Source of the DNA: a phage
Strand: one strand, 5' to 3'
Length of the DNA: 64,000 bases
Sequence record: PZ445551.1
Each line of letters opens with the position of its first letter. Position 1 is the first letter of the stretch. Below the pieces are notes generated by a model, which saw only the letters and a program-made list of their open reading frames with translations, had not been told where the DNA came from and made no database searches. Positions 12,337 to 46,856 of this stretch are shown here, piece by piece. The position numbers and the translations under genes are program-made.

Positions 12337-13311
12337 TTAAAGACTTTCAATAACTTGACGACGCAGTTCATTGGCATCTGCAAGATTATAATTAAGACGA
12401 ACGTGTTCTGCAAGCATCATACCACGATCTTCTGTGTATCTAGGGTTCCTCATTAGCTTGACAACTTCATAATGCCAAGATGCTTTAGAGTCTGCATAGA
12501 TAACAGCCTTTGCATCTACCGGATTGAAGTACGGCAGCACAGGAGAACAGATAATAGGAAGACCCTTTGCACCTGCTTCCAAAATCTTCAAATTGCTTTT
12601 ACAGTTGTTGAAGTCATTATCTACCAGAGGAGCAATTGCAATACTGTGACCGTCATACACAGACATATACTCACCTAAATTTTTAATAGCTGGTTTATAC
12701 TGTGCATTTGGAATTTTACGTTTTACTTTAACCCACTCCGCAGTAGTTAGATACTGACTATTATTTCCAACAGGTGCAGAAGGATACACTTCATACCCTG
12801 CAATTGTCAATAGCGTATCATCAAATGTATTAGCTACAAGAGATAAATCAGGTTCATGGCTTGCTCCTCCCGCCCAAATAATAGGCGTGTCAGAATAACG
12901 GTCTTTTGTCAAAGTAAATTGACCTTCGTCGTAAGGTAGTGCGTTTCTAACAACGACAACATTACGATTTAAATGACGAATTTTGTAAGCTAGGTATTCT
13001 GTTGTTACAGTAACCACATCTGCTAACTTAATCATCTCTACAATAGTCTTTGAGTGATTAGTAAATACGCCAGCCATATAATGTTCAGGATTAAGCGAAT
13101 AAAAATCATCTAAATCAACAATAATCTTAACACCTTGTGCCTTCAGGCGTTTAACTTCGTCTGATCCACGAGAATACACTCTATTAAAAACTAAAACGTC
13201 TTTCTTAGGTTTAAACGTATTTCCAGCAAATGGCATTACAATACGATGGTAATCACAACCACTGCCTAACTTATTATCACACTTAAGTACAGGAGTATTA
13301 GGATTTACCAT
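12337..13311 (-). CDS. Glycosyltransferase (GT-B-like), paralog of 11381-12325
   Basis: Start set at ATG 13311 (SD GGAGG upstream; N-terminus then aligns with the paralog); longest ORF runs to 13350. Confidence 0.65.
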   Translation of the reverse strand: MVNPNTPVLKCDNKLGSGCDYHRIVMPFAGNTFKPKKDVLVFNRVYSRGSDEVKRLKAQGVKIIVDLDDFYSLNPEHYMAGVFTNHSKTIVEMIKLADVVTVTTEYLAYKIRHLNRNVVVVRNALPYDEGQFTLTKDRYSDTPIIWAGGASHEPDLSLVANTFDDTLLTIAGYEVYPSAPVGNNSQYLTTAEWVKVKRKIPNAQYKPAIKNLGEYMSVYDGHSIAIAPLVDNDFNNCKSNLKILEAGAKGLPIICSPVLPYFNPVDAKAVIYADSKASWHYEVVKLMRNPRYTEDRGMMLAEHVRLNYNLADANELRRQVIESL

Positions 13312-13984
13312 ATTTTTGAGCCTCCTCATAAGAGATAAAAGTTTTACCATTGCGAAGATCCTCCAGTGATTGTTTATATTGTTCCCAGTTTACACCAATC
13401 CCCTGTTCTTTCTCTTCTTTTGACAGATTCGCAAAAGGTAAAGGATTGTCTCCAAACACATCGTCAGGATGGATAAACGCCATAATTCGAATAGGACATG
13501 GTACGCCGTGAATACCTCGGTTCAAACCTGCCAGTGGAACGCGCTGAATCCACTCTGCATCTTCATATCCATAACCGTGGGTGTATGAGCGGAAATAGCC
13601 AGCTTTCTCAATAACTGCACGGGAATACATACCAAACTGGCACATGCCTAGCTCCCAAATAACCACTTCTCCTTCAATACCTTTTACTTTATCTTTAAAG
13701 TATTCAGGCATACCAAAGAAATCCCAACCATTTTCCTTCGCCTGTTTTACAAAATATGTTTCCCAACCTGGAACAACAGGATAGCAATCATCATCAAAAA
13801 TAAACCAGTAGTCATACCCTTCATCATAAAACTTTTTCATCAGTTCATTACGGGCATATGCAACACCTTTTCGTTCACGATCATACTGTACAACAAAAGT
13901 AGCATTAGGATCAGTCACAAGATAATCTTTAAGAGGACGCTTACCTACAGTAATAACACCAACACCAATTTTTGTATTTTCCAA
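13298..13984 (-). CDS. Glycosyltransferase, GT-A fold (family 2-like, DxD motif)
   Basis: GVGVITVGKR N-terminus and FIFDDDCYP DxD-type motif; 228 aa. Confidence 0.6.
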   Translation of the reverse strand: MENTKIGVGVITVGKRPLKDYLVTDPNATFVVQYDRERKGVAYARNELMKKFYDEGYDYWFIFDDDCYPVVPGWETYFVKQAKENGWDFFGMPEYFKDKVKGIEGEVVIWELGMCQFGMYSRAVIEKAGYFRSYTHGYGYEDAEWIQRVPLAGLNRGIHGVPCPIRIMAFIHPDDVFGDNPLPFANLSKEEKEQGIGVNWEQYKQSLEDLRNGKTFISYEEAQKYGKS

Positions 13985-13993
13985 AATAACTCC

Positions 13994-14557
13994 TTAAATA
14001 ATTTTATTCATGTCTTGACAATGTAAAAGGTGTGAAACAGCTTTTCTAGGATCATCATTACCTAAACGGTATGTGTGAAATAAATATAACCCACGTAGTA
14101 AACCTAGCCTTTTATTGTTAGCGTGCAATGCTTTAGAGAAAATTATATCAAACTGTATTGATCTTTCCTCAAAAGGCATTTCATTCCACAGACTCTTACG
14201 AAAGAGAAGAAAGAATCCTGCTAAGATAGCATCTGTAGGTACTTCCTCTATTGAGTTTCCCCATTCTAGATGTGCTCTTTTTGCAATCTCAATGTGGTGT
14301 AATATATTCGGATCTTCACTTCTTTCATTATTAAATAATTGATATGTTGATCCCAATCTGTTACAAGATGCACCAAGAACATCAAAATCAGGATTTGAAC
14401 GGACAATTGATTCCAGCCAAGCAGGTTGTTCTGGAAGAAGAAACATTGTATCAATGTCTCTTAGGCAAATCCAACTATCTTCTGGTAAGACACTTATTGT
14501 GTCATTGATACCTTTTCCAATATCTCCAGAAAGATAGGGAGTTATGTGAAATATCAT
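13994..14557 (-). CDS. Hypothetical protein, possible nucleotide-sugar transferase
   Basis: 187-aa ORF co-operonic with the glycosyltransferases; LRDIDTMF DxD-like motif. Confidence 0.5.
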   Translation of the reverse strand: MIFHITPYLSGDIGKGINDTISVLPEDSWICLRDIDTMFLLPEQPAWLESIVRSNPDFDVLGASCNRLGSTYQLFNNERSEDPNILHHIEIAKRAHLEWGNSIEEVPTDAILAGFFLLFRKSLWNEMPFEERSIQFDIIFSKALHANNKRLGLLRGLYLFHTYRLGNDDPRKAVSHLLHCQDMNKII

Positions 14558-15305: not shown

Positions 15306-15815
15306 TTAGCGATAGAATTGATGTTCTTTGTAGCGGTACACTAGAACCATATCTTTTTCCCAGTGTGCTCTTATTGTAGATTTTTTAAAGTATAATGCTC
15401 CTTTTGTAATATCTAATGCAATTCGTAATTCTGGAAAATGCGTATCGAGATAAAGTAGACGTTCTGCTATAGCCTTAGCTTCCTTCCACTTATCACGTTC
15501 CATAACGTTGAATGTCTTTGTGTAAGAGAATTGTCCTTTTTGAAACAAAACTTCTTTTATAGTATCAGGGAAATATGAATCTCTAGCCCTATTCAATACT
15601 ACATTACCAACAGCAGACATACCGCGCTTTCCTTGATTACGACTTTCTGCATAGATTGCACAAGCTAATAGATTTTCTTTACTATCACGCTTTGTACACT
15701 TGTGAACTACTTTAGCAGTTTTTACGTTTGCAGCTTCGGCTTGCGCCACAACAGGTGTAAATGTAAAAGCAGTTAAGGATAGTAACGCAATTGCGACAAA
15801 GGTTTTTATTGACAA
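15306..15815 (-). CDS. Secreted cell-wall hydrolase (SleB/CwlJ Hydrolase_2-like), candidate endolysin
   Basis: N-terminal signal peptide (AFTFTPVVAQA); Hydrolase_2 signature CAIYAESRNQ...AVGNVVLNR. Confidence 0.7.
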   Translation of the reverse strand: MSIKTFVAIALLSLTAFTFTPVVAQAEAANVKTAKVVHKCTKRDSKENLLACAIYAESRNQGKRGMSAVGNVVLNRARDSYFPDTIKEVLFQKGQFSYTKTFNVMERDKWKEAKAIAERLLYLDTHFPELRIALDITKGALYFKKSTIRAHWEKDMVLVYRYKEHQFYR

Positions 15816-16562: not shown

Positions 16563-17159
16563 TTACTCGAACCAATCGTCGCCAGCGCCAAACGCTTTAA
16601 CTACATCGTAAATGTCAAGCCCAGCTTTACCCACACCATACGCTTTCAGTTTCCATTCGCTATCTTCTCGCACCAGGGAGGCAACGTGGCAAATGGTGTT
16701 ACCTGCAAGTTCTGGAGCCAAGAAGTCAAAGTCCAGCAGTTCAACATTACGTTCATCATCGAAGATTTTAAGGAAACCTTCGGTAGCGTGACCAAGGCGT
16801 TTCTTACCCGTTTCGTCATCAATAGTAATTACGAATGCAATTTCCTGTGCTTCAGCAGAGATATTATCCAGTGTAACATCAATCTGCTCCATCTGTCCTA
16901 CACCATCACGAACATCTTCACCTGCAAAAGTAGAACGTTCAGGATCAAATTTCTGCGCGTAGCACACCAGGTGACGAGGAGACAACAGTTCCGGCAGACC
17001 AGATGCATTGTGTCGGCAAATCAGAGCACTAACATCCAGATCCAGTTTTTCGTTAGATTTCCAAGAGAATTCCAGACGAATGCGTTTCAGTGCTGGTGCA
17101 ATCTTTTTCAGAGAAACTTTTTCGCTAGAACCTTTTTTCAGGGAAATTTTCTGAGTCAT
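16563..17159 (-). CDS. TerD-domain protein (tellurite-resistance / stress-response TerD family)
   Basis: N-terminal ISLKKG...VSLKK, LDLDVSA, GEDVRDG and C-terminal GxGKAG pattern typical of TerD; 198 aa. Confidence 0.8.
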   Translation of the reverse strand: MTQKISLKKGSSEKVSLKKIAPALKRIRLEFSWKSNEKLDLDVSALICRHNASGLPELLSPRHLVCYAQKFDPERSTFAGEDVRDGVGQMEQIDVTLDNISAEAQEIAFVITIDDETGKKRLGHATEGFLKIFDDERNVELLDFDFLAPELAGNTICHVASLVREDSEWKLKAYGVGKAGLDIYDVVKAFGAGDDWFE

Positions 17160-17231
17160 AATTTATTATCTCCTTTGTTGTTAATTTACGTTGTCTATTT
17201 TACTAATCTTTTCTACAAAGTCAAGCGTTTT

Positions 17232-18026
17232 TTACGCTTTTGCTCCAAATTTTTTAACCCACTCACCAAACTCTTCGGATAGCAGTTTATCGTAAAGTTC
17301 TTCGTCAGACAAGGACAAATCTGCAATACCGATAAAATCAACATTATCGTATTCTTTTGCCAAGTCTTTCAGGAATTTAAAGTTTGCATTACCTACACCA
17401 ACCATAAACCAGTAAACAGGTGTATTGCGGTGTTTGTTCAGTAAGCTACGTACTGCTGAAGTATCCATGTTCTCCCCGTCAGTTTGGAAGAAAATCATTG
17501 CAGGAGTACGATCAACTTGTGCATCAGTATCTACAACCTGTTCTACAACAGTACGTGTTACTTCTACAAGTTCTTTTTTACCAGTTAGTTTAGCAAGGAA
17601 ACCTTTAGCCGGAACTTCTTCATACTCAACGACTTCGCGTGTAATATTTTTCATAGGTACACTACCGAAGTATGTATCATAGATCTCTTGCATTACTGGA
17701 GCATAAGCAGTACCACCGTTGATGCAAACATTAGACATGCAAGAGCCGACATAATCATCATACACATCAGCCGTTGCAGGAGGCAGTTCAAAAGAAGAAC
17801 TATTGAAAGCCCACATGTCAATCTGTGCATTATCATCAAACTTCATACCAAACGGCAGCAGTTTACCTACAAAATCGCTAACAGTGCCATCACGATACAG
17901 CTCACACATACTACCCGAAATATCTAAGGCGCTACCTACACGAAGAACAACATCGTTAATCTTTTTCTTACGCAGGGATACAGTAAGAGTTTCTTGACGT
18001 TTTTTAAGACTGATTTTATTGGACAT
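17232..18026 (-). CDS. von Willebrand factor A (vWA) domain protein, TerY-like
   Basis: MIDAS motif DISGSM; sits next to TerD as in Ter operons. Confidence 0.7.
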   Translation of the reverse strand: MSNKISLKKRQETLTVSLRKKKINDVVLRVGSALDISGSMCELYRDGTVSDFVGKLLPFGMKFDDNAQIDMWAFNSSSFELPPATADVYDDYVGSCMSNVCINGGTAYAPVMQEIYDTYFGSVPMKNITREVVEYEEVPAKGFLAKLTGKKELVEVTRTVVEQVVDTDAQVDRTPAMIFFQTDGENMDTSAVRSLLNKHRNTPVYWFMVGVGNANFKFLKDLAKEYDNVDFIGIADLSLSDEELYDKLLSEEFGEWVKKFGAKA

Positions 18027-18027
18027 A

Positions 18028-18297
18028 TTATTTCTCCTTTCTGACTGTAATGTTAGTAACTTCTAAATCCACTTCTACCACTTCTGTATCATATAAAATA
18101 CAGTTAAGTTGACCTCTTTGTGAACCGTTAAGACACATTGCTTGGTTTGTATTAACCTTAATAAACACTAAGTTTCTGAACGTATCTAAACCAGCATCTT
18201 GATAGGCAACATAATATACGAATGTATCACCTGTGTCAAGTTCTCCAAAACATTTAGGTTCATCTGATTTGTCGTCTTTGATATTAAATTTAAGCAC
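18028..18297 (-). CDS. Hypothetical protein
   Basis: 89-aa ORF. Confidence 0.5.
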   Translation of the reverse strand: MLKFNIKDDKSDEPKCFGELDTGDTFVYYVAYQDAGLDTFRNLVFIKVNTNQAMCLNGSQRGQLNCILYDTEVVEVDLEVTNITVRKEK

Positions 18298-18853
18298 TGT
18301 TTTCTCCTTTACCTGCTCTCAAGCCTAAATAGAAAGCCTCTCTAGTGATTTTTTGCAACTCGTTTAAAGAGATAGTTACAACTAAATCATCTTCAATTTC
18401 TAGCTTTGAGTCTTCTTCTGTCTCAATGCAAGTATTATGCACTTTGTGGTAAGGATTGTCAACACGTTTAAATTTATTATTTTCAGTGCTGAAGAAGCAA
18501 TCTGGATCTTCTTCTCCATCACCCCAACCCTGGTTAGGGTCTTCTTCAGATCTTTCTGTTGGGATCTCACCTGTAAAGTGTTCTTCTAATACCAGAGCAA
18601 TCCCATCTCCAAGATCGGAAGAGAACATCAAATTACAAACTTCTTCCCAAGGCATAGACCACTTGAATCTTTTACGATTGCCATGTTTATCTTCTTCGTT
18701 AGAGAAAACACTACCATAGCTATCATAATTCCCATACATCTCTTCGACAACCTTACCACCTTTCAAAAGAAATAGGTAGCAAGGAGAGCCATCGAAAGAG
18801 GTAGAAAGAGCAGCATTACCAGACTCTTTGCACAAGAAACTAAAACACCCCAT
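18290..18853 (-). CDS. Hypothetical protein (acidic C-terminal half)
   Basis: 187-aa ORF. Confidence 0.55.
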   Translation of the reverse strand: MGCFSFLCKESGNAALSTSFDGSPCYLFLLKGGKVVEEMYGNYDSYGSVFSNEEDKHGNRKRFKWSMPWEEVCNLMFSSDLGDGIALVLEEHFTGEIPTERSEEDPNQGWGDGEEDPDCFFSTENNKFKRVDNPYHKVHNTCIETEEDSKLEIEDDLVVTISLNELQKITREAFYLGLRAGKGENSA

Positions 18854-19053
18854 TATACACCAGCCTTAAGATCAATTAAAGCCAAAGTTGTTTCAGAGTG
18901 TGTTTGCTCGTCTACAGGTGCAGTCATATGATAATACAAAAAATCTTCGGCATCATACCAATCTGATTCTTGACCTTGTTTCCAACCATCAATGAAAGCA
19001 TCTTCCATAATGGTTTGCAATTCTTCACGAGTTAAGTGAATATCTTTACTCAT
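18853..19053 (-). CDS. Hypothetical small acidic protein
   Basis: 66-aa ORF with ATGA-type overlap to its neighbour. Confidence 0.5.
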   Translation of the reverse strand: MSKDIHLTREELQTIMEDAFIDGWKQGQESDWYDAEDFLYYHMTAPVDEQTHSETTLALIDLKAGV

Positions 19054-19259
19054 TACACATTCTCCTCTTTTACCAATTCCATCGTTGAACTATCAAAACC
19101 ATCTTTAGAAGAATAGGTATAGACAGAACGTAGTTCTCGCAGGACAGTGAATACATTAGGATCATCTAACCAAGCATCCTGGAGGAGAACATAACGATCT
19201 TCATTGTCATACTGAACAGCAATCATAGAACCAGACAGTTTGTAAATTTTAATATTCAT
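19053..19259 (-). CDS. Hypothetical small protein
   Basis: Start set at ATG 19259 with SD AAGGAG upstream; longest ORF runs to 19286. Confidence 0.5.
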   Translation of the reverse strand: MNIKIYKLSGSMIAVQYDNEDRYVLLQDAWLDDPNVFTVLRELRSVYTYSSKDGFDSSTMELVKEENV

Positions 19260-19272
19260 AATATATTTCTCC

Positions 19273-20376
19273 TTAAAGTAGACCACGTTTAACAGTTTGA
19301 ATCATACCATCTTCAAGAGATTGCACTTCTTGAATGTAATCAATACGCGCAGCACGGGCTTCAGTGTTTATTCGGTTAGTTTCTTCCAACATTTTAACTA
19401 AGTTTTCTTGATCGCGACGTAATGTTTCAATATCCAATACTTGACGATTAGCAAGTTGTGTAGCTTCAATTTGGTTTTGTGCAGCCAGATCACTACCCAT
19501 TGCAATAGCAGCATTAAATTCATTCAGCACATTGTTCTGTGTATCGGCTGCTTTCTTCTGGCGTAGACTTTCAATATACATAGAAAAGTTTGCAGAGTAA
19601 GCAGGGATAACATTATTCACAATATTACGGGCTGATCGCATCAAACTTGTAGATACTTTCTGCATACTTTGTACACGTGGCCCCATCTGAACACACAGTA
19701 AACGCAAGGCTTTCAGGTCTGCAATACGAATTTCAAGCAGATCCATAGTATCACGAGTACGTTGACGCTCTTCTACTTCATTTTCAGGTAGTGTATTAAG
19801 GCGAACTTCTTCTTTTTCATAAGTAGCTGTTAGAAGCTCTATATCCCTGTTTAAGCTAAGAGCATATTTTGCAATAGCCTCTTCTAAACGTTGCAGATAT
19901 CGTAAAGAATCTTCTTCTTTTTTCAAGTCTGTTTGTAGTGTCTTTACCAAACCTTCAATACGATTATTGATGGTGTCAAATTCACCAAACAAATCTTCTT
20001 TCATACCTAATACTTTCTTAACTAGTTTACCTAAGCCTTTAGATTGTTTAATAGAGTTAGGATCAAGTTGCTTTGCTTGCTTAATAAGTGCAGTTAAACG
20101 TTCACTCATTTCATCCCCCTGAGATGAACGCTGGTGTTTAAGCACTTCAGCATTAAGGTTACGAAGAGTAAGTCCTGCATCAGCACCAACTTGTTCAATC
20201 TCTTCACGAGACATTGGAGGCAGCATTTGTACAGGTCGTGCAACAGCAGGGGCATATACAGGGCTTGCATCCATAGCACTTGGAGCAAACAAAGACTTAC
20301 TTTTTTCTGTTGTTGCCGTGAATACACTCATTTCAGACGGTTTGCTTTTTACGGCACTGATAAAAGGACTGGACAT
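19273..20376 (-). CDS. TelA/KlaA-like toxic-anion-resistance family protein
   Basis: 367-aa, mostly alpha-helical, repeated heptad-like segments consistent with TelA; clusters with TerD, vWA and TerC. Confidence 0.6.
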   Translation of the reverse strand: MSSPFISAVKSKPSEMSVFTATTEKSKSLFAPSAMDASPVYAPAVARPVQMLPPMSREEIEQVGADAGLTLRNLNAEVLKHQRSSQGDEMSERLTALIKQAKQLDPNSIKQSKGLGKLVKKVLGMKEDLFGEFDTINNRIEGLVKTLQTDLKKEEDSLRYLQRLEEAIAKYALSLNRDIELLTATYEKEEVRLNTLPENEVEERQRTRDTMDLLEIRIADLKALRLLCVQMGPRVQSMQKVSTSLMRSARNIVNNVIPAYSANFSMYIESLRQKKAADTQNNVLNEFNAAIAMGSDLAAQNQIEATQLANRQVLDIETLRRDQENLVKMLEETNRINTEARAARIDYIQEVQSLEDGMIQTVKRGLL

Positions 20377-20444
20377 TCAATTTCCTCCATATTCTTTAGT
20401 AGATGGTGATACCTCTGTACCACCATCATAACACAAATTAAGTA

Positions 20445-21296
20445 TTAAACAAACATATCTAAATAATTTGTAGTAATAAATGCTCCATCTGCTTCCAGAT
20501 TAACATAACCAGTAGCATTAGTGGTTAAGAAATCCAGATCGAAGGACTCTTTAACACCCCGTACCTCAACACGAGAGATATCGAATACAGGTAGTGTAAC
20601 AGCCTCTTCGTGCAATACCGTACCTTTGTAGGTTGCCTTAATGATAAACTTGATATTACCCGTTCCAGCATCATACAAAACACTTTCAAACCCTTTGAGA
20701 GTATACTTATCACCAGAAGTGAAGTGCAAAGTTGCTTTGTTTACAGTACGTTTTTTACGAGGAGTTCCTTTCACACGTTTATGATCACTACGTTTTTTGT
20801 ATTTAGGAATGAATACAAACGATACATTGTGAAGAAAGGTATCAACATCAAGGATTTTAATATCCTCTGTTGCAGCAAATTTTGAAGTTGTTGCATCAAA
20901 ATGCTTTTCCCGGCGATCATACATAAAGATATCAAACCGATCTTCTAAATCAAACAAATTATGTATTTTAATTTCAGAATGCTTGCGCATTGCAGCAACC
21001 TTGAACTCTTCAAAACGTGGGTGTTCTACAAGTTCTTCAAGTTTTACACCAAAGACAGTATATTGCTTCGGAGTTTTTTCTGGTGTTGGCATTACAGAAG
21101 CATAATCACCGATTGCGCTTTTAAAGCAAAATTGTTCTTGACCTGTATTTTTACCAACGAATTTACAGTATTCGTCATCGTGCATACTTTCCTGGGTAGT
21201 ATCAACAAACTCAAAACCATCTTTATTCTTCTCAAGAATTTCTTGATTAAAGATCCAACCTTCCAGGCGATATACTTTACCAACTTCTAGTTTCAT
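20445..21296 (-). CDS. Hypothetical protein
   Basis: 283-aa ORF. Confidence 0.6.
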   Translation of the reverse strand: MKLEVGKVYRLEGWIFNQEILEKNKDGFEFVDTTQESMHDDEYCKFVGKNTGQEQFCFKSAIGDYASVMPTPEKTPKQYTVFGVKLEELVEHPRFEEFKVAAMRKHSEIKIHNLFDLEDRFDIFMYDRREKHFDATTSKFAATEDIKILDVDTFLHNVSFVFIPKYKKRSDHKRVKGTPRKKRTVNKATLHFTSGDKYTLKGFESVLYDAGTGNIKFIIKATYKGTVLHEEAVTLPVFDISRVEVRGVKESFDLDFLTTNATGYVNLEADGAFITTNYLDMFV

Positions 21297-21331
21297 CTGT
21301 TTCTCCTTCTTATTTAATCTGTATTAAATTA

Positions 21332-21922
21332 TTAACGACGACGTGAGCTACTAAAACTACGTTTCGACGAAGAATAACTTTTCGAAGACTTACTATAAGA
21401 GCTAATAGGGCTTGAGTAAGACTTACGAGCAGAGTAATTACTATTCACTTTTGTTGTTGATGGGCGTGAATACGTTTGTACACTTTGCTGCTTAATTGTG
21501 TTTTGTTTAGTGGTTGTATATGTATTTCCTTGTTTATCATAAAAACTATGCTTTTGTGTTGTATATGCTTTACTATTAGTTGTAGGAGCAGCGTTGTTAT
21601 TGATAATTGTTGTATTGCTACCGCCATCTCTATAACCACCACCGCCACTATTACCACTCAACATATGACCAAGGAGCATACCTGTAGCAAATTCACCTAC
21701 ACCAGAAGAACCACTACCGCCTCCTTGCACAACAACTGTTGAAGGTTGTGCAGGTGCTGCTTGAACAACTTGAGGTGCAGGTTGATTTACATATTGTTCA
21801 TCTACCATCTGATTTGGTGTTTGTTGGTAACGTTGATTTTGTACATTTTCAGAATCATCACAACCTACCAGCAATACACTACCTAAAACAACTGCAACAA
21901 TAAAAGATTTAATGTTTTTCAT
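21332..21922 (-). CDS. Lipoprotein with Gly-rich middle and Ser/Tyr/Lys-rich C-terminus
   Basis: Signal peptide with lipobox LLVGC after start MKNIKSF; low-complexity tail SYSKSSKSYSSSKRS. Confidence 0.55.
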   Translation of the reverse strand: MKNIKSFIVAVVLGSVLLVGCDDSENVQNQRYQQTPNQMVDEQYVNQPAPQVVQAAPAQPSTVVVQGGGSGSSGVGEFATGMLLGHMLSGNSGGGGYRDGGSNTTIINNNAAPTTNSKAYTTQKHSFYDKQGNTYTTTKQNTIKQQSVQTYSRPSTTKVNSNYSARKSYSSPISSYSKSSKSYSSSKRSFSSSRRR

Positions 21923-22115
21923 TTGTAACCCTCTCATTTAAAGTCTCAACACAATTTTTAAAATCCCTAGAGAAACAATACATCTGTTCTCCGTTCCTGT
22001 TGATAGTAATTGTATGGTTATCAATATATGTTGTCAAGATAAAAATCAAACAAAACAACCCTAGAGCAAAACAAATATTTTCAAACAGAATCCAAAGAAC
22101 ACGTAAAACCACCAT
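21909..22115 (-). CDS. Small membrane protein
   Basis: 68-aa hydrophobic ORF; SD GAGGTGA upstream. Confidence 0.45.
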   Translation of the reverse strand: MVVLRVLWILFENICFALGLFCLIFILTTYIDNHTITINRNGEQMYCFSRDFKNCVETLNERVTNEKH

Positions 22116-22127
22116 CAGATCACCTCA

Positions 22128-22150
22128 ATAAAGCCCCCGAAGGGGCTTAA
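22128..22150 (-). terminator. Intrinsic terminator (GCCCC-UUCG-GGGGC + UUUAUU)
   Basis: Stem-loop plus U-rich tract on the minus strand after the TerC gene. Confidence 0.5.
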
Positions 22151-22166
22151 TGAATTAAGCAACAGC

Positions 22167-23132
22167 CTAGTCTTCTTTTTCAGGGAAGATTAAACTTGCA
22201 ATAACACCCAGCCCAAGAGTACCTAACACAATATACATACTGATCGTCGGATCAATGTGTGCTGGCAGGAAACTCACTTTTGCGTGCAGAGTTTCTGCAA
22301 ACGGGTGATACATCAGTTTTACACCCACAAATACCAGGACTACGATAACTGCTTTCTCCAGATGAACCAAATACTTCAGTGCAACACTAAGAACAAAGAA
22401 CAGAGCACGTAAACCTAAGATTGCACAGAGCATCGAAGAGAACACCAGCAGAGGTTCTTGTGTCACTGCAATTACTGCTGGAACAGAGTCTACTGCAAAG
22501 ATTACGTCAACCATTTCCATTACAAACACACAAACCAGAGCCGGAGTTGCTACACGAACACCATTTTTGATTGTGAAGAACTTCTCACCATCCATCTGAT
22601 CAGATACAGGGAACAGCTTACGAACAATGCGAGTAGCCCAGTGTTTAGAGTAATCAACTTCTGCATCATTATCTCCAGCGAATACCATTTTAGCCGCACA
22701 GAAAAGGATGACAGCACCGAAGAAGATATTAACATACCAGCCCAAACTCAACAAGTAAGTACCTACTGCTACAAACACACCTCGGAAGACAATCGCACCT
22801 GCAATACCCCAAAGTAGAATCTTGTGTTGCAAGTGTGTGCTTTTAATACCAAAACTTGCGAATACTGCCACAAATACTACTAAGTTATCTACAGAAAGAG
22901 ATTTCTCCAACACATACCCACTCAAGAACAAGCTCGCAAAATCAGCACCGTGTTGGAAGTATACAAAACCATAGTAGGCTAATGATACCCCAATCCAGAA
23001 AATTGACCAACCAACTGCCGATTTAAATGAAATCTCTTTGTTTTCTCTGTGTCCAAAGAAATCAATACAAATCGACAACACTAAAATACCCACTAAAACA
23101 ACCACATCAATAATTGGGAAACCCAGTTGCAT
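22167..23132 (-). CDS. TerC-family integral membrane protein
   Basis: Multi-pass membrane protein with TerC signatures (EKSLSVDNLVVF, DSVPAVIAVTQ, ILGLRALFF). Confidence 0.85.
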   Translation of the reverse strand: MQLGFPIIDVVVLVGILVLSICIDFFGHRENKEISFKSAVGWSIFWIGVSLAYYGFVYFQHGADFASLFLSGYVLEKSLSVDNLVVFVAVFASFGIKSTHLQHKILLWGIAGAIVFRGVFVAVGTYLLSLGWYVNIFFGAVILFCAAKMVFAGDNDAEVDYSKHWATRIVRKLFPVSDQMDGEKFFTIKNGVRVATPALVCVFVMEMVDVIFAVDSVPAVIAVTQEPLLVFSSMLCAILGLRALFFVLSVALKYLVHLEKAVIVVLVFVGVKLMYHPFAETLHAKVSFLPAHIDPTISMYIVLGTLGLGVIASLIFPEKED

Positions 23133-23150
23133 TCTTTTCTCCTCTTTAAT

Positions 23151-23169
23151 GCGGAGGACAATCCTCCGC
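23151..23169. other. Palindromic stem-loop (GCGGAGGA-caa-TCCTCCGC) upstream of the TerC RBS
   Basis: Perfect 8-bp stem in the intergenic region. Confidence 0.4.
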
Positions 23170-23209
23170 TCTATGTCTTATACTATAAACTGTTTTTAAA
23201 GAAAGTCAA

Positions 23210-23458
23210 CTAGTTCAGTTCTGTAATTTTAAGTTTATCTTCTTTGTTAATGATAGGGAAAGCTACAGCATCACCTACGTCATCAATAAAGCAAATAGCA
23301 ATACCACCTTCCACTTTGCTAATCTGACCATTAAAGGCGTGATACGGGGCAGGAACTTGATCTCCATCTTCAAGGAGAATAGCCTCGTAAACCTTGCCGA
23401 TAGTACAATCACGAGTGTTTCTAAATTTTTCAAGCACTTCAACATTTACTTTACGCAT
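23210..23458 (-). CDS. Hypothetical protein
   Basis: 82-aa ORF. Confidence 0.5.
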   Translation of the reverse strand: MRKVNVEVLEKFRNTRDCTIGKVYEAILLEDGDQVPAPYHAFNGQISKVEGGIAICFIDDVGDAVAFPIINKEDKLKITELN

Positions 23459-23472
23459 ATAAAAATCCTCTC

Positions 23473-23679
23473 TTATTTGTTAGATTGAAAGATACCACGA
23501 AGTACCGCAAGAATGAACGTCACACAGACTACACTCCAAAACGTTACAGGAACATGATGCCAGTCTAAGCCGATAATGTCAATCATATAGTTGTATGCTA
23601 AAAGCAGTAGCCAACTAGGGATTAACACAATCAAGAACACAACAATAAAACAACCTAATACTGCTAAAACACCTGCCAT
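23473..23679 (-). CDS. Small membrane protein
   Basis: 68-aa ORF with two hydrophobic helices. Confidence 0.5.
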   Translation of the reverse strand: MAGVLAVLGCFIVVFLIVLIPSWLLLLAYNYMIDIIGLDWHHVPVTFWSVVCVTFILAVLRGIFQSNK

Positions 23680-23688
23680 ACTTTCTCC

Positions 23689-24405
23689 TTATTTCAGTTT
23701 GTAAACAATTACATTTAAACCTTTGTTTACTAGAGTTTCTTCGATCATAAGTTTTACAATATTCCAAGAACCTCCAGCCAAACCACAACCAAGCATTGGT
23801 AAACCTACAATTTTACCGCCTGAAGATACAACATCGTCTCCCATACTATCTAACGCATTATAGATAGCTTCATAATTCAGGTCACGCTTACCTTCCTCAC
23901 GACGACTATAACCATATTGTCCATATAAATTATAAATTGTCAAATTGTTTTCTGTATACTTGGTAAACGTACCTAATTTTTTATAATCACCACGTTTAGT
24001 GGCACAGTCTGCTTTAAACGCCCCAGGCCACTTACTTTTAATTTTTGGTGCAATACCACTACCCATAGTGCAAAAACAGTTACAGCAGTGTGCTATAGCG
24101 TCTATATCGCCTCTCTCGGCTGCTGCTAAAAGATCACCGTATACCTCAATGATACCTGCTGGATAACTTGTTACAATTTCATCTTCCCAGTACATTTTCT
24201 CTACACCACCGATCAGTGCAAAGTTTTGTGTAATGCGATCATCAATATAGTTAAGACCTGAAACATACACAGCATATTCATCCTGTGCTGTAATACCTTG
24301 TACACGAATTCTTAAGACACCATCTTTATCTGTTGCTACACGCCCAAAATCTTTTTCTGTAATATTGGTGATAGGATCTCCGAAAGTCATTACTTTATTA
24401 GACAT
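23689..24405 (-). CDS. Macro-domain protein of the TARG1/DarG type (ADP-ribose hydrolase) with an N-terminal extension
   Basis: C-terminal half matches TARG1/DarG macro signatures (AHCCNCFCTMGSGIA ... LGCGLAGGSW ... VIVYK); start at ATG 24405 with SD AGGGG. Confidence 0.65.
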   Translation of the reverse strand: MSNKVMTFGDPITNITEKDFGRVATDKDGVLRIRVQGITAQDEYAVYVSGLNYIDDRITQNFALIGGVEKMYWEDEIVTSYPAGIIEVYGDLLAAAERGDIDAIAHCCNCFCTMGSGIAPKIKSKWPGAFKADCATKRGDYKKLGTFTKYTENNLTIYNLYGQYGYSRREEGKRDLNYEAIYNALDSMGDDVVSSGGKIVGLPMLGCGLAGGSWNIVKLMIEETLVNKGLNVIVYKLK

Positions 24406-25255
24406 AATAATCCCCTTTAACATTAGATTTGTCGATAATGTTGCTTTCAAAAAATTGACGTAAGAAATCAAAATTCTCTTTGTATTTTTCAATATTATTG
24501 TAACCTTCTGCAAGGCAACCAAAGAACAGTTGTTCTACATAATACAAAGGAAGTTGTGAAAGTGCAATTTTAAAGTCAACTTCGCTTTGACTCATTAGAT
24601 ACTTAATAGGACGAACCAAACATTTAGCATCAGTTTCTTGCTTAATCATTTTAATAAAAGCTGCCAGATTATTAATATAGTTGAAGTTAAGTGCAGCTTC
24701 GGTATTGGCTTCTGTACCTTCATACTTTGCAAAGTACAGGAAAAACGTATCGTTTTCAACACCTTCTTTGTCTAAAATTTCAATAAGTTTTTCTTCGTGT
24801 GTTCCTGTAATATTAACATCATCAATGAAAATCAGAGTTTTATTACCCCAGAAATCACGATTGATAGAGAAAGTGTCACCATCGATCAAAGCCTTACGAT
24901 CTTCTTTGCTAAGAAATCCATAATCATTGATATAGCTCACTTTACGATGAACGATATCCCACTCCACTGCTTTACCTCCTTTGATAGAGATTAGGTAGTT
25001 GATGTGATCTACAAAATGTTCAGATAACACTGTAGCTGCATTTTTCACATAGTTATATGGAGATGGAATAACAACAAAACTTTCATTTACCAGTCGTTCT
25101 TCATACTTAGAAAAGAAACTTTCAGCCAGAATGCGCCCCATTCTTTTTGCTGCCTGGTTACTACCAAACTTTAACTTGGAATAATCTGCAATGTTAAATT
25201 TTGCTTCCTTCAGGTTAGTAAAAGTATTAGCAAAATGTTGAATTTGATTACGCAT
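24398..25255 (-). CDS. Phosphoribosyltransferase (PRTase type I) domain protein
   Basis: PRPP-binding motif TLIFIDDVNITGTHEEK; 285 aa. Confidence 0.7.
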   Translation of the reverse strand: MRNQIQHFANTFTNLKEAKFNIADYSKLKFGSNQAAKRMGRILAESFFSKYEERLVNESFVVIPSPYNYVKNAATVLSEHFVDHINYLISIKGGKAVEWDIVHRKVSYINDYGFLSKEDRKALIDGDTFSINRDFWGNKTLIFIDDVNITGTHEEKLIEILDKEGVENDTFFLYFAKYEGTEANTEAALNFNYINNLAAFIKMIKQETDAKCLVRPIKYLMSQSEVDFKIALSQLPLYYVEQLFFGCLAEGYNNIEKYKENFDFLRQFFESNIIDKSNVKGDYYV

Positions 25256-25904
25256 TAATAAGTTCCTCTTTTTTAAGTTTAGCCAACAAGTCTTCTGGAT
25301 TAATAATATGACAGAACTTCATCCCTATGTCAACAGCTTTTCCATCATAAATCAAACTATCTCCAACGTGTAAAATCTCCTCTGGTGCGAGATCAAACGT
25401 CACCATTTCATCAAAAGAGAGTTTAAAAAACCTAGGATCTGGTTTACACAAGCAAAACTCGTCAGAAAAATGCATAAAGTCGAATGGTAATTTTGTTAAA
25501 CCAGAATATACAGCTAAGAAACTACCTGGTACAAAATTAGTATTACTCTTAATACTCAAAGAGTAGGTTGAACTTAGCTCTTCCAACTTCTTGCAAAGTT
25601 CAGGATTCAATGTTGGAGGATGTTTTATAAACATTGCTAAACAGTCTCTTTTTAACCCATCCACTTTATCAAGATCAATGTTCAAATGAGCAGAAAGTGT
25701 TACCCAAGCATCCTTAGACGTTCCACAAATGCCTTTTTCTGCTTTTAAATCCAAGAGAGTTTTTACCTCTTTATATACGGTAGCTGCTTCTGCCTCAGAA
25801 CAAGAGGCATACTCGGCAATAACCTTGTTGCGCTCTTCTGCATACAAAGGGTTAGCAGTAATAAGAGTATTCCATACATCAAAAGAAATATGCTTAACAG
25901 TCAT
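25248..25904 (-). CDS. HAD-superfamily hydrolase (haloacid-dehalogenase-like phosphatase)
   Basis: Motif I ISFDVWNTL and motif IV HVGDSLIYDG; start at ATG 25904 with SD GGAGG. Confidence 0.65.
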   Translation of the reverse strand: MTVKHISFDVWNTLITANPLYAEERNKVIAEYASCSEAEAATVYKEVKTLLDLKAEKGICGTSKDAWVTLSAHLNIDLDKVDGLKRDCLAMFIKHPPTLNPELCKKLEELSSTYSLSIKSNTNFVPGSFLAVYSGLTKLPFDFMHFSDEFCLCKPDPRFFKLSFDEMVTFDLAPEEILHVGDSLIYDGKAVDIGMKFCHIINPEDLLAKLKKEELINA

Positions 25905-26073: not shown

Positions 26074-26277
26074 TTAGAATGGTAATCTTTGTATGTCACT
26101 TATCCCCACACCAAGAAGTCTAGCAATATCCTTATCTAAAAGCAACTCTTTTTGTTCTAAAATGTTAATCAGATCTCCTAATACTTCTTTAATGTCACGA
26201 TCATTTTTAGCAACGTGACCACCTGCTGTATCAACTTTATCTTTAAAAACAAAGTAATGATCCATAATACCCTCCAT
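26074..26277 (-). CDS. Hypothetical small protein
   Basis: 67-aa ORF; SD GGAGG upstream. Confidence 0.5.
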   Translation of the reverse strand: MEGIMDHYFVFKDKVDTAGGHVAKNDRDIKEVLGDLINILEQKELLLDKDIARLLGVGISDIQRLPF

Positions 26278-26282: not shown

Positions 26283-26306
26283 TAAAGGAGGCTTTCGCCT
26301 CCTTTT
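26283..26306 (-). terminator. Intrinsic terminator (AAGGAGGC-gaaa-GCCTCCTT + U-rich)
   Basis: Perfect 8-bp stem with GNRA-type loop after the ATPase gene. Confidence 0.5.
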
Positions 26307-45887: not shown

Positions 45888-45909
45888 ATAACAGAAGAGA
45901 GAAATAATC

Positions 45910-46182: not shown

Positions 46183-46185
46183 GGC

Positions 46186-46854: not shown

Positions 46855-46856
46855 TC

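What the first reader, a model, noticed from the sequence alone, without database searches (positions are those of the whole stretch)
16563..25904. Phage-borne tellurite-resistance-like (Ter) cluster: TerD, vWA (TerY-like), TelA-like and TerC, next to a macro/PRTase/HAD trio
Four hallmark Ter-system components sit within about 7 kb on one strand of a virulent phage, immediately followed by a phosphoribosyltransferase, a HAD phosphatase and a macro domain. Comparative genomics of bacterial Ter systems has reported PRTase and HAD enzymes associated with TerD and proposed that they make a nucleoside-like metabolite. A phage carrying the whole ensemble suggests an infection-time stress or small-molecule pathway (membrane homeostasis, Ca2+ or metal signalling, or anti-defence) that is not a standard phage function.
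Basis: partly seen in the sequence, partly recalled or inferred. Interest (0 to 1): 0.8.

Follow-up and report, generated by a model that had tools for sequence, protein, structure and literature searches.

The report
Tellurite-resistance-like gene cluster in phi92-type phage
A virulent E. coli phage of the phi92 group carries a conserved set of bacterial "Ter" stress genes beside a two-enzyme ribosylation module; the genes are real and under selection, similar clusters have already been reported in other phages, and their job during infection is still untested.

Summary
All seven domain calls pass Pfam's curated thresholds: TerD, TerF-like vWA, TelA, TerC, Macro, ComF-like PRTase_3 and HAD. 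The window is Escherichia phage VivaForever, a phi92-like Justusliebigvirus.

The genes lie on the minus strand in a 9.7-kb block bounded by two terminator-like hairpins. The block is colinear in phAPEC8-like phages, rearranged but retained in a third Klebsiella-phage lineage, and under strong purifying selection (87 synonymous against 9 non-synonymous changes).

HAD sits directly upstream of PRTase_3 in 25 of 25 loci, and Ter genes lie within 10 kb in 15 of them, in varied orders. The macrodomain is not part of this unit. Its family occurs in about 2,970 phage records and is adjacent only in this phage subfamily. Several interspersed ORFs, such as gp175, are also unrelated.

terC carries the phage's own early-type promoter and stem-loop cassette in place of the bacterial Mn riboswitch.

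Phage Ter systems, including PRTase plus HAD, were described by Iyer et al. in 2021. This is therefore a new member of a known kind. The most likely role, inferred and not shown, is an early-expressed inner-membrane and cation-homeostasis module that protects the infected cell and excludes competitors.

The parts
26284..26305 (-). Terminator-like hairpin that closes the upstream AAA-ATPase gene and marks the upstream edge of the block
   Evidence: A terminator was predicted independently at the same place in phage Paula's annotation (L001 12781-12803).
26074..26277 (-). gp189-like small protein (67 aa), first gene of the block, function unknown
   Evidence: ORF. Conserved in phAPEC8 (49% identity) and in L017-L022. 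No Pfam match.
25248..25904 (-). HAD-superfamily hydrolase (218 aa), first enzyme of the two-gene Ter 'biosynthetic module'. Motif I is FDVWNT: the nucleophile Asp is present but Asp+2 is replaced by an invariant Trp.
   Evidence: Pfam PF00702, 27.0 bits against 26.4. Alignments show invariant D9, W11, T13, S120/N121, K154, G181-D182 and D187. It lies directly upstream of PRTase_3 in 25/25 loci and overlaps the PRTase gene by 8 nt. Nearest solved relative is 2om6, which has the same FDVWNT motif.
24398..25255 (-). ComF-like type I phosphoribosyltransferase (PRTase_3, 285 aa) with an intact PRPP loop (IFIDDVNITGTHE) and a C-terminal all-helical domain
23689..24405 (-). Macrodomain protein (238 aa): macro domain at residues 88-237 plus an N-terminal extension specific to Justusliebigvirus. 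Adjacent to the cluster but probably not part of the Ter system.
   Evidence: Pfam Macro, 30.8 bits. Nearest PDB entries are SCO6735 (5e3b), BT1257 (2fg1) and TARG1 (4j5q). Homologues occur in 2,973 phage records including T4-like Tk.4. Adjacent to the PRTase only in Stephanstirmvirinae. The DarG model gives only 49 bits against a cut-off of 250.
23473..23679 (-). gp184-like small membrane protein (68 aa, two hydrophobic segments)
   Evidence: Hydropathy. 60% identical in phAPEC8. PHROG of unknown function.
23210..23458 (-). gp183-like protein (82 aa), function unknown
   Evidence: Found only in Justusliebigvirus-like loci.
23151..23209 (-). Early-type promoter and stem-loop cassette in front of terC: TTGACT-16-TATAGT, then the hairpin GCGGAGGA-TTG-TCCTCCGC, then the Shine-Dalgarno sequence
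   Evidence: The architecture is kept, with compensatory stem changes, in phAPEC8, L019 and L020. The same cassette type recurs 10 times at 45.8-54.8 kb on the + strand. phAPEC8's authors annotated a host-dependent promoter at this spot. There is no Rfam yybP-ykoY riboswitch.
22167..23132 (-). TerC/Alx-family integral membrane protein (321 aa, at least 8 hydrophobic segments), predicted divalent-cation (Mn2+-type) exporter
   Evidence: Pfam TerC, 1.1e-38. TIGR03718, 323 bits against 246. Motifs SxDN and ExxDxxFxxDSxP are conserved. Hydropathy. dN/dS 0.05.
21909..22115 (-). gp181-like single-pass membrane protein (68 aa)
   Evidence: 49% identical in phAPEC8.
21332..21922 (-). gp180-like lipoprotein (196 aa): lipobox LLVGC, Asp at position +2 (the inner-membrane retention signal in E. 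coli), and a Ser/Thr/Gln-rich tail
   Evidence: Sequence; lipobox scan. Weakly conserved in phAPEC8 (35%).
20445..21296 (-). gp179-like protein (283 aa), function unknown, specific to this lineage
   Evidence: No Pfam or NCBIfam match. PHROG of unknown function. Only partly conserved in phAPEC8.
19273..20376 (-). TelA-like protein (367 aa), soluble and helical
   Evidence: Pfam TelA, 2.9e-34 over residues 57-362. 78% identical in phAPEC8. 246 phage records hold a relative. dN/dS 0.015. No solved relative by sequence.
18028..19259 (-). Four interspersed ORFs (gp177, gp176, gp175, gp174) that are not Ter-linked elsewhere
   Evidence: No Pfam match. The gp175 domain occurs in about 300 proteins from phage contigs without Ter genes and is missing from some Justusliebigvirus loci.
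17232..18026 (-). TerF-like von Willebrand A protein (264 aa) with a complete MIDAS metal site (DISGS, GGT, TDGEN-D)
   Evidence: Pfam PF10138, 1.2e-38. MIDAS residues are invariant in 11 phage homologues. dN/dS 0.015.
17197..17224 (-). Sigma-70-like promoter (TTGACT-16-TAAAAT) in the vWA-terD intergenic gap
   Evidence: It is a consensus match only; the count of such sites in the region is not above chance.
16563..17159 (-). TerD-domain protein (198 aa). The DLD motif is kept; the acidic Ca2+-binding loop is partly degenerate (GEDVRDGVGQMEQ against the bacterial GDNRTGEGDGDDE).
   Evidence: Pfam TerD, 5.1e-28. Alignment to Klebsiella TerD 2kxt. Loop comparison across 18 TerDs. 13 synonymous and 0 non-synonymous changes against phage Paula.
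16538..16553 (-). Terminator-like GC hairpin (bidirectional) 10 nt after the terD stop codon; downstream edge of the block

Best explanation
This is a minimal, phage-adapted Ter system. It combines the TerC-TerD-TerF(vWA)-TelA hub with the two-enzyme HAD + PRTase_3 'biosynthetic' pair.

The genes lie in one leftward block of a phi92-like virulent phage. At least terC is transcribed from an early, host-RNA-polymerase-type promoter.

Proposed mechanism:
- TerC, an Alx-type exporter, moves a divalent cation (most likely Mn2+-like) across the inner membrane. It does so constitutively, because the bacterial Mn riboswitch has been replaced by a phage early cassette.
- TelA, the MIDAS-containing vWA protein and TerD form a metal-binding assembly on the cytoplasmic face of the membrane.
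- Together they keep the infected cell's inner membrane tolerant to permeabilising insults. These include DNA injection by secondary phages, pore-forming colicins and possibly pore-forming suicide effectors. The resident phage is thereby protected and competitors are excluded.
- The PRTase uses PRPP to phosphoribosylate an unknown acceptor. The HAD enzyme processes the product into a small ribosylated, nucleoside-like ligand that feeds into the complex.

Shown here: identity of the domains, intact metal and PRPP motifs, operon-like layout, co-conservation, purifying selection, and the early-type promoter cassette.

Inferred: the transported ion, the physical complex, the product of the enzyme pair, and the exclusion or protection phenotype.

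The adjacent macrodomain and several interspersed ORFs are most likely independent accessory genes.
For: - Domain identities all pass curated cut-offs.
- The block is bounded by terminator-like hairpins, and the HAD/PRTase and PRTase/Macro gene pairs each overlap by 8 nt.
- The whole block is colinear in phAPEC8 at 49-81% amino-acid identity. It is retained after rearrangement in Klebsiella phage KP13-16.
- Independent phage-like contigs at 45-50% PRTase identity carry TerC, TerD, vWA, HAD and PRTase together in different orders.
- HAD lies directly upstream of the PRTase in 25/25 loci, and Ter genes lie within 10 kb in 15/25.
- A Hymenobacter plasmid has the same pair beside three TerD genes, two vWA genes, a PP2C phosphatase, a kinase and a DUF475 protein.
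- Purifying selection: 87 synonymous against 9 non-synonymous differences in the six core genes compared with phage Paula, omega 0-0.06.
- The MIDAS site, the TerC motifs and the PRPP loop are conserved.
- The PRTase model is confident and closest to ComF.
- The terC promoter plus hairpin is conserved with compensatory changes. It is of the same type as 10 cassettes in the small-ORF region of the phage.
- Literature on bacterial systems. The R478 ter cluster gives phage inhibition, resistance to pore-forming colicins and tellurite resistance (cited). Klebsiella TerC gives tolerance to envelope-acting agents (PMC9933665). Alx and TerC proteins export Mn2+ (PMC10197570, PMC10550928, PMC13274385).
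- The superinfection-exclusion proposal for phage Ter systems comes from PMC7824862.
Against: - No experiment on any phage Ter gene was found.
- TerD's acidic Ca2+ loop is degenerate in this lineage, so Ca2+ sensing may be lost.
- The HAD lacks the Asp+2 general acid/base of phosphatases; a Trp is invariant there. The 'dephosphorylation' step is therefore uncertain.
- No TerB was found, although one paper says TerB usually accompanies the biosynthetic module.
- In 10 of 25 loci the HAD-PRTase pair has no Ter gene within 10 kb, so the two parts can function apart.
- PADLOC models give no hit for any Ter protein.
- Sigma-70-like sites in the region are not more frequent than in shuffled sequence: 47 found against 40 +/- 7 expected.
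Confidence: 0.4

Rival explanations
1. Metal manipulation for the phage's own metabolism. TerC/Alx, expressed without its riboswitch, simply lowers or redistributes Mn2+ or another cation in the infected cell. This could tune metal-dependent phage or host enzymes, or metalate exported proteins. TerD, vWA and TelA would serve as metal buffers. No exclusion or membrane protection is involved.
For: - TerC passes the Alx subfamily cut-off.
- Alx and TerC proteins are Mn exporters or metalation factors.
- The riboswitch is absent and is replaced by an early promoter cassette.
- The vWA MIDAS site is conserved.
- The block sits next to the anaerobic ribonucleotide reductase genes.
Against: - It does not explain why TelA and the HAD-PRTase pair travel with TerC in several phage lineages.
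- It does not account for the bacterial phage-inhibition and colicin phenotypes.
- In Klebsiella, TerC was dispensable for metal-stress resistance.
Confidence: 0.2
2. Two or three independent modules that are merely neighbours. HAD-PRTase would be a nucleotide-pool or ribosyl-transfer module, either salvage or house-cleaning or PRPP-dependent ribosylation of some acceptor (the precedent being Ribf-transferases that act on glycans). The macrodomain would be a separate anti-ADP-ribosylation factor. The Ter genes would act on their own.
For: - The pair occurs without Ter genes within 10 kb in 10/25 loci. Examples are Rhizobium phages, where it sits next to DHFR, a PurA/PurZ-like gene and a cytidylyltransferase, and plasmid pRL10.
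- It lies just downstream of nrdD/nrdG here.
- The HAD profile weakly matches the phosphatase domain of a PRPP-dependent ribofuranosyltransferase, 7shg, E 0.003.
- The HAD also weakly matches the YjjG nucleotidase model.
- The macrodomain is ubiquitous in phages.
Against: - The pair is tightly linked to Ter genes, in varied gene orders, in 8 of 18 divergent loci and on a bacterial plasmid.
- PF15610 is the Ter-associated PRTase family.
- Caulobacter and Brevundimonas phages that have the pair also carry Ter genes elsewhere in the genome.
- The PRTase profile does not match 7shg.
Confidence: 0.2
3. A host-benefit 'moron'. The genes would give the carrier cell resistance to tellurite or other xenobiotics during pseudolysogeny or a carrier state, with no role in the lytic cycle.
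For: This is suggested as a secondary possibility for jumbo phages in PMC7824862. Bacterial ter loci confer tellurite resistance.
Against: - The phage is virulent.
- The cluster is conserved with omega around 0.03 across dozens of lytic isolates.
- terC uses the phage's early promoter cassette.
- The classical tellurite determinants (the TerZ/A/B/E set) are absent.
Confidence: 0.05

Closest known systems
Phage-borne Ter systems described by Iyer, Anantharaman, Krishnan, Burroughs and Aravind 2021 (Viruses 13:63): Acinetobacter phage vB_AbaM_ME3 with PRTase + HAD, and Caulobacter jumbo phages with TerD/TerC/TerF/TelA
   Same: Same component set (TerC, TerD, TerF-type vWA, TelA, PRTase, HAD) in a virulent phage. 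The same PRTase_3/HAD pair is found in Caulobacter and Brevundimonas phages.
   Different: - This is a 146-kb non-jumbo myovirus of Stephanstirmvirinae that infects E. coli.
- All components lie in one 9.7-kb block, whereas in Caulobacter phages the pair is about 28 kb from TerD.
- TerD's Ca2+ loop is degenerate.
- A macrodomain gene overlaps the end of the PRTase gene by 8 nt.
Otagovirus phiPsa374 (terC gp11, terD gp12, terF gp13, telA gp15) and Klebsiella phage phiKp34
   Same: The TerC-TerD-vWA-TelA hub is present in virulent phages, noted by their authors as being of unknown role.
   Different: Neither paper reports a PRTase/HAD pair for those phages, and the PRTase search hit only 2 Pseudomonas phage records or fewer against 24 for TelA. 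TelA is only about 22% identical to the window's protein.
Bacterial Ter systems: terZABCDEF of IncHI2 R478, E. coli O157 and Klebsiella pK2044, and the B. subtilis yceCDEFGH operon
   Same: They share the TerC, TerD and TelA families, a metal-binding logic at the membrane, and an associated PRTase + HAD biosynthetic module.
   Different: - The phage set has a single TerD paralogue, no detected TerB and no TerZ/A/E expansion.
- The TerW/X/Y, kinase and phosphatase genes and the ATP-grasp and TIM-barrel enzymes are absent.
- The phage PRTase has no detectable relative on enterobacterial ter plasmids.
- TerD matches Klebsiella TerD only distantly (E 9e-15, 58 bits).
E. coli Alx, the riboswitch-controlled TerC-family Mn2+ exporter
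   Same: The phage TerC scores above the curated cut-off of the Alx subfamily model.
   Different: There is no yybP-ykoY riboswitch. A phage early promoter and stem-loop cassette takes its place.
SCO6735 / BT1257 / TARG1-type macrodomains, and T4-like Tk.4
   Same: These are the best sequence matches to the macro domain, and the family is widespread in phages.
   Different: - There is an extra N-terminal domain of about 87 residues, found in Justusliebigvirus only.
- The TARG1 catalytic Lys and Asp appear replaced. This rests on my own reading of the alignment and on residue numbers from memory.
- It is not a DarG: 49 bits against a cut-off of 250, and no C-terminal domain.

Membership tests
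Ter system hub (TerC-TerD-TerF vWA-TelA, sensu Anantharaman/Iyer/Aravind) | TerD domain protein | tested here: met
   PF02342, 98.2 bits against a cut-off of 25.3. Aligns over 176 residues to Klebsiella TerD 2kxt.
Ter system hub (TerC-TerD-TerF vWA-TelA, sensu Anantharaman/Iyer/Aravind) | TerC-family integral membrane protein with the paired acidic motifs | tested here: met
   PF03741, 133.2 bits. TIGR03718, 323 bits against 246. At least 8 hydrophobic segments. SxDN and ExxDxxFxxDSxP motifs are conserved.
Ter system hub (TerC-TerD-TerF vWA-TelA, sensu Anantharaman/Iyer/Aravind) | TelA-family protein | tested here: met
   PF05816, 119.1 bits against 30, covering positions 13-330 of the 332-position profile.
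Ter system hub (TerC-TerD-TerF vWA-TelA, sensu Anantharaman/Iyer/Aravind) | TerF/TerY-type vWA protein with a MIDAS site | tested here: met
   PF10138, 133.8 bits against 29.4. DxSGS, GGT and TDGxNxD are invariant in 11 phage homologues.
Ter system hub (TerC-TerD-TerF vWA-TelA, sensu Anantharaman/Iyer/Aravind) | Genes co-localised and co-conserved across lineages | tested here: met
   Colinear in phAPEC8 and retained in KP13-16 and in unrelated contigs with different orders. Omega is 0-0.06.
Ter system hub (TerC-TerD-TerF vWA-TelA, sensu Anantharaman/Iyer/Aravind) | TerD Ca2+-binding acidic loop (GDN-TG-GDGDDE) | tested here: not met
   The loop reads GEDVRDGVGQMEQ. The GDDE cluster is lost in Justusliebigvirus and Phapecoctavirus but kept in other phage and plasmid TerDs. 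This is a feature of canonical TerD, not of the system as a whole.
Ter system hub (TerC-TerD-TerF vWA-TelA, sensu Anantharaman/Iyer/Aravind) | Confers resistance to tellurite, phages or pore-forming colicins | not testable with these tools
   This needs expression and deletion experiments. None was found in the literature for phage copies.
Classical terZABCDEF operon (IncHI2 / O157 / Klebsiella type) | Several TerD paralogues (TerZ, TerA, TerD, TerE) plus TerB | tested here: not met
   There is only one TerD-domain ORF, and no TerB Pfam match in any of the 17 cluster ORFs scanned with Pfam, at E up to 0.01; the 68-aa gp177 ORF was scanned only against PHROGs.
Ter two-enzyme biosynthetic module (PRTase + HAD) | PRTase of the Ter-associated ComF-like family with an intact PRPP loop | tested here: met
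   [not shown]
Ter two-enzyme biosynthetic module (PRTase + HAD) | HAD gene adjacent to the PRTase | tested here: met
   HAD lies immediately upstream in 25/25 loci. The two genes overlap by 8 nt here.
Ter two-enzyme biosynthetic module (PRTase + HAD) | HAD has the phosphatase catalytic motif DxD | tested here: not met
   Motif I is D-V-W-N-T with an invariant Trp at Asp+2. This holds in phage copies and in both plasmid copies. The nucleophile Asp, the motif II Ser, the motif III Lys and the motif IV GDxxxD are present.
Ter two-enzyme biosynthetic module (PRTase + HAD) | Genomic linkage to Ter genes | tested here: met
   Linked in 15/25 loci, including a bacterial plasmid. Absent within 10 kb in the other 10.
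Ter two-enzyme biosynthetic module (PRTase + HAD) | Makes a nucleoside-like metabolite | not testable with these tools
   This is a prediction from comparative genomics. No substrate is known for PF15610, and no solved relative was found by sequence.
DarG antitoxin (DNA ADP-ribosyl glycohydrolase) | Scores at the equivalog cut-off and has the C-terminal DarT-binding domain | tested here: not met
   NF048014 gives 48.9 bits against a cut-off of 250, and only positions 4-147 of the 338-position model are matched. The PADLOC DarG hit covers the macro part only.
TerY-P defence system (PADLOC) | TerY vWA with PP2C phosphatase and Ser/Thr kinase | tested here: not met
   No PADLOC match for the vWA or any other Ter protein. 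No kinase or PP2C domain was found in the block.
Dual-domain ribofuranosyltransferase (PRP phosphatase + gPRT) | Both the HAD-type phosphatase and the glycan PRTase domain are related | tested here: not met
   The HAD profile matches 7shg only at E 0.003, and the PRTase profile does not match it at E up to 0.1. It is a functional analogy only.

The most novel reading that the evidence does not exclude
The phage Ter hub would be a broad counter-defence device. Expressed early, it would make the inner membrane refractory to pore-forming or depolarising suicide effectors of abortive-infection systems, as well as to colicins and rival phages. The HAD-PRTase pair would make a previously unknown ribosylated small molecule that switches the complex on. 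The invariant Trp at the HAD Asp+2 position would then reflect chemistry other than simple dephosphorylation.
Probability: 0.12. Interest if true: 0.75.

Novelty: new member of a known kind. Interest (0 to 1): 0.3.

Why it matters
The function of Ter systems has been unclear for decades, even though they are common in pathogens. A compact seven-gene version exists in easily handled E. coli phages, and relatives of this phage are in the BASEL collection. That gives a tractable system for deletion, exclusion, membrane-potential and metabolomics experiments.

If the cluster proved to protect membranes or exclude competitors, it would explain why unrelated lytic phages keep acquiring these genes. 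As it stands, the finding extends a published observation to another phage family and adds anatomical detail. It does not reveal a new kind of system.

Tried and rejected
- **Mn riboswitch before terC.** Rfam found nothing in the whole window.
- **Macrodomain as a DarG-like anti-DarT factor.** The score is far below the cut-off, only the macro part matches, and the family is ubiquitous in phages.
- **Macro/PRTase/HAD as a conserved trio.** The macrodomain is adjacent only in Stephanstirmvirinae.
- **A fifth conserved component.** I compared the 290-420-aa unknown proteins beside TerD, TelA or TerC in other loci. Each has relatives only in one or two other loci (for example L005-L025, L007-L030, L008-L027/L021), and none resembles a window protein.
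- **Linkage of the SleB-like hydrolase to Ter genes.** It holds only within Stephanstirmvirinae.
- **Origin from enterobacterial ter islands.** tblastn of the PRTase against 72,556 plasmids hit only Rhizobium, Sinorhizobium and Hymenobacter.
- **PADLOC defence models.** No hit for any Ter protein.
- **The Anantharaman 2012 paper (PMC4104200).** It could not be read, so its content is cited second-hand.
- **Sequence search of PDB.** No solved relative was found for TelA or vWA, and only a marginal hit for the PRTase profile (4rqa, E 0.05).

Full report
**1. What is there**

The window is 100% identical over the tested 9.5 kb to Escherichia phage VivaForever (PP925843.1). It is about 98% identical to phi92 and some 50 other Justusliebigvirus genomes. 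Phage Paula's record gives the taxonomy as Stephanstirmvirinae, Justusliebigvirus.

All genes between about 4 and 40 kb run on the minus strand.

| Coordinates | Family | Bits (cut-off) |
|---|---|---|
| 16563-17159 | TerD | 98.2 (25.3) |
| 17232-18026 | vWA-TerF-like | 133.8 (29.4) |
| 19273-20376 | TelA | 119.1 (30) |
| 22167-23132 | TerC | 133.2 (27.8) |
| 23689-24405 | Macro | 30.8 (22) |
| 24398-25255 | PRTase_3 'ComF-like' | 141 (28.7) |
| 25248-25904 | HAD hydrolase | 27.0 (26.4) |

TerC also passes the NCBIfam TerC/Alx subfamily model, 323 bits against 246.

**2. Anatomy**

In the direction of transcription the order is: gp189, a 51-aa ORF, HAD, PRTase, Macro, gp184, gp183, TerC, gp181, gp180, gp179, TelA, gp177, gp176, gp175, gp174, vWA, TerD.

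- HAD/PRTase and PRTase/Macro each overlap by 8 nt.
- A terminator-like hairpin lies upstream at 26305-26284, after the AAA-ATPase gene. It was predicted independently in phage Paula. Another lies 10 nt after terD at 16553-16538. Together they bracket a 9.7-kb block that coincides with the finding.
- gp184 has two hydrophobic segments and gp181 has one.
- gp180 has a lipobox (LLVGC) followed by Asp, which is the inner-membrane retention signal in E. coli.
- TerC has at least eight hydrophobic segments.

**3. Regulation**

The 77-nt gap before terC holds TTGACT-16-TATAGT, then the hairpin GCGGAGGA-TTG-TCCTCCGC about 10 nt later, then the ribosome-binding site.

The same architecture precedes terC in phAPEC8, L019 and L020. 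The stem sequences differ but remain complementary. phAPEC8's authors annotated a host-dependent promoter there.

A scan of the window found the same cassette type ten times on the + strand between 45.8 and 54.8 kb, the region of many small ORFs. That cassette is TTGACA-N17-TAnnnT followed by a GCGG...CCGC hairpin. terC therefore uses what looks like the phage's early, host-polymerase cassette.

Rfam finds no yybP-ykoY Mn riboswitch, or anything else, in the window. Bacterial Alx-type genes are defined by that riboswitch (PMC10197570). A second sigma-70-like site sits in the vWA-terD gap. Taken alone such sites are no more frequent than in shuffled sequence, so only the conserved cassette carries weight.

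**4. State of the active sites**

- **vWA.** The MIDAS triad (DISGS, GGT, TDGEN-D) is intact and invariant in 11 phage homologues.
- **TerC.** Both acidic motifs are kept.
- **TerD.** The DLD motif is kept, but the acidic Ca2+ loop of Klebsiella TerD (GDNRTGEGDGDDE) reads GEDVRDGVGQMEQ here. Other phage and plasmid TerDs retain GDDE.
- **PRTase.** The PRPP loop is intact, and DDVxITGTHE is invariant in 60 sequences.
  - The AF2 model is confident: pLDDT 91.6, pTM 0.88.
  - An unmatched helical domain spans residues 185-272.
- **HAD.** The nucleophile Asp and motifs II-IV are present, but a Trp is invariant at Asp+2. This holds in all phage and plasmid copies.
  - The feature is shared with the uncharacterised archaeal protein 2om6.
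  - From established HAD enzymology (my own knowledge), Asp+2 is the general acid/base of phosphatases. The usual label 'phosphatase' is therefore not secure.

**5. Co-conservation**

- phAPEC8 (Phapecoctavirus) carries the whole block in the same order at 49-81% amino-acid identity. Its macrodomain is shorter and it has an extra hydrolase.
- Klebsiella phage KP13-16 has TerC, vWA, two TerD genes, TelA and the HAD-PRTase pair rearranged within 11 kb, and no macrodomain.
- Two phage-like metagenomic contigs with PRTases 45-50% identical have TerC, TerD, vWA, HAD and PRTase together.
- I pooled 25 PRTase_3 loci: phage records, IMG/VR contigs and two plasmids.
  - HAD is immediately upstream in all 25.
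  - Ter genes lie within 10 kb in 15. That count includes 8 of 18 loci outside the close relatives, with several different gene orders.
- A Hymenobacter plasmid has the pair divergent from three TerD genes, two vWA genes, a PP2C phosphatase, a kinase and a DUF475 protein.
- Rhizobium phages and plasmid pRL10 have the pair alone.
- Caulobacter and Brevundimonas phages have the pair, with Ter genes elsewhere in the genome.
- Against phage Paula the six core genes show 87 synonymous and 9 non-synonymous differences, omega 0-0.06. Against phAPEC8, omega is 0.08-0.25.
- The cluster's G+C content matches the rest of the phage.
- The PRTase has no detectable relative on enterobacterial ter plasmids. 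This is therefore not a recent capture from the host's ter island.

**6. What does not belong**

- **Macrodomain.** Residues 88-237 have homologues in 2,973 phage records, among them T4-like Tk.4 genes.
  - It is next to the PRTase only in Stephanstirmvirinae.
  - Its closest solved relatives are SCO6735, BT1257 and TARG1.
  - The DarG models match only the macro part, far below the cut-off.
- **gp175.** It is highly conserved, but its N-terminal domain occurs in about 300 proteins from Ter-free phage contexts, and it is missing from some Justusliebigvirus loci.
- **Other small ORFs.** gp174, gp176, gp179, gp180, gp181 and gp184 are shared only with closely related Stephanstirmvirinae loci, apart from one gp180-like hit in L025.
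- **TerB.** No TerB or other Ter-associated Pfam domain was detected in any of them at E up to 0.01.

**7. Comparison with what is known**

- Iyer et al. 2021 (PMC7824862) described Ter systems in phages. They reported a 'relatively complete' one with PRTase and HAD in Acinetobacter phage ME3 and abbreviated ones in Caulobacter jumbo phages. They also mention 'certain other related smaller tailed phages'.
- The same paper proposed a role in competition with superinfecting phages.
- phiPsa374 and phiKp34 papers list TerC/TerD/TerF/TelA sets.
- phi92 gp172, gp173 and gp178 were flagged as Ter proteins in 2015. GenBank records annotate most parts.
- According to PMC11994780, the bacterial biosynthetic module comes in two-enzyme and five-enzyme forms that always include a PRTase and a HAD. 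The predicted product is a pyrimidine-derived ribonucleoside. The phage has the two-enzyme form.
- I found no experiment on any phage Ter gene.

**8. Mechanism**

The bacterial data come from the literature:
- phage inhibition and resistance to pore-forming colicins by the R478 ter cluster (cited);
- TerC-dependent tolerance to envelope-acting agents in Klebsiella;
- Mn2+ export by Alx and TerC proteins.

Combined with the early-type cassette and the four membrane proteins in the block, these point to an early-expressed inner-membrane and cation-homeostasis device. It would protect the infected cell and exclude competitors. The HAD-PRTase pair would supply a ribosylated small ligand.

This is inference. 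I give it about 0.4, against 0.2 each for a purely metal-metabolic role and for independent neighbouring modules, and 0.05 for a host-benefit moron.

A PRPP-dependent transfer followed by HAD processing has a biochemical precedent in ribofuranosyltransferases. Sequence relatedness to those enzymes is marginal for the HAD and absent for the PRTase.

**9. Verdict**

Three points need correcting:
- the 'trio' with the macrodomain is not a unit;
- the kind of system is already known in phages;
- the function is unproven.

The additions made here are:
- the terminator-bounded block;
- the early cassette that replaces the riboswitch;
- the 25/25 HAD-PRTase linkage and the 15/25 linkage to Ter genes;
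- the degenerate TerD loop;
- the invariant Trp in the HAD.

Noticed in passing
[not shown]
   Followed up: partly
window 45830-54830 (+ strand), and 23209-23151 (- strand): A repeated regulatory cassette: TTGACA-N17-TAnnnT, then about 10 nt later a GCGG(G/C)AA-ATAGT/ATGGT-TTCCCGC-type hairpin. It occurs at least 10 times in the small-ORF region and once before terC. It resembles the promoter-early-stem-loop cassettes described in T4-type phages (from my own knowledge).
   Followed up: partly
terC, window 22167-23132; phage records: Some Phapecoctavirus genomes (for example ECO340P1, tuntematon, BI-EHEC) carry a TerC 95-96% identical to the Justusliebigvirus protein, while most have a 72% allele. 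This suggests allele exchange between the two genera.
   Followed up: no
window 25248-25904 (HAD) and all 25 related loci: This HAD clade has an invariant Trp at the Asp+2 position (FDVWNT). The feature is shared with the uncharacterised Pyrococcus protein 2om6. It argues against a canonical phosphatase mechanism.
   Followed up: partly
phage records MG065639, MG065645, MG065656, MG065689, MG065650: Records labelled 'Campylobacter phage' with host C. jejuni are 98.5% identical to E. coli phi92-like or phAPEC8-like phages over this region. The host label is probably wrong or the samples were contaminated.
   Followed up: no
window 15306-15815 (- strand): A SleB-type cell-wall hydrolase with an N-terminal signal-like hydrophobic segment lies just downstream of the block. 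It stays next to the Ter genes in phAPEC8 and KP13-16, but not outside Stephanstirmvirinae.
   Followed up: yes
window 21332-21922 (- strand), gp180: A predicted lipoprotein with Asp at +2 (inner-membrane retention) and a long Ser/Thr/Gln-rich tail. Together with gp181 (one TM) and gp184 (two TM), it could be an exclusion or lysis-related membrane factor.
   Followed up: no
L003 (Rhizobium phage RHph_TM30) 600-12000: Here the HAD-PRTase pair sits among nucleotide-metabolism genes: DHFR, a metallophosphoesterase, a cytidylyltransferase and a PurA/PurZ-like adenylosuccinate synthetase. No Ter gene lies in the stretch examined (about 5 kb upstream and 14 kb downstream of the PRTase).
   Followed up: no
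window 12337-14557 (- strand): Three consecutive ORFs of 337, 228 and 187 aa. The 187-aa one (13994-14557) is annotated as a glycosyltransferase in the source record, and the other two look glycosyltransferase-like by eye. I did not examine them.
   Followed up: no
window ~40000: GC skew changes sign at about 40 kb together with a switch in coding strand. No tRNA or other Rfam family reaches the gathering score anywhere in the 64 kb.
   Followed up: no
window 23689-24405, residues 1-87 of the macrodomain protein: An N-terminal extension of about 87 residues is present only in Justusliebigvirus copies. phAPEC8 and thousands of other phages have the macro domain alone. No family matches the extension.
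   Followed up: no
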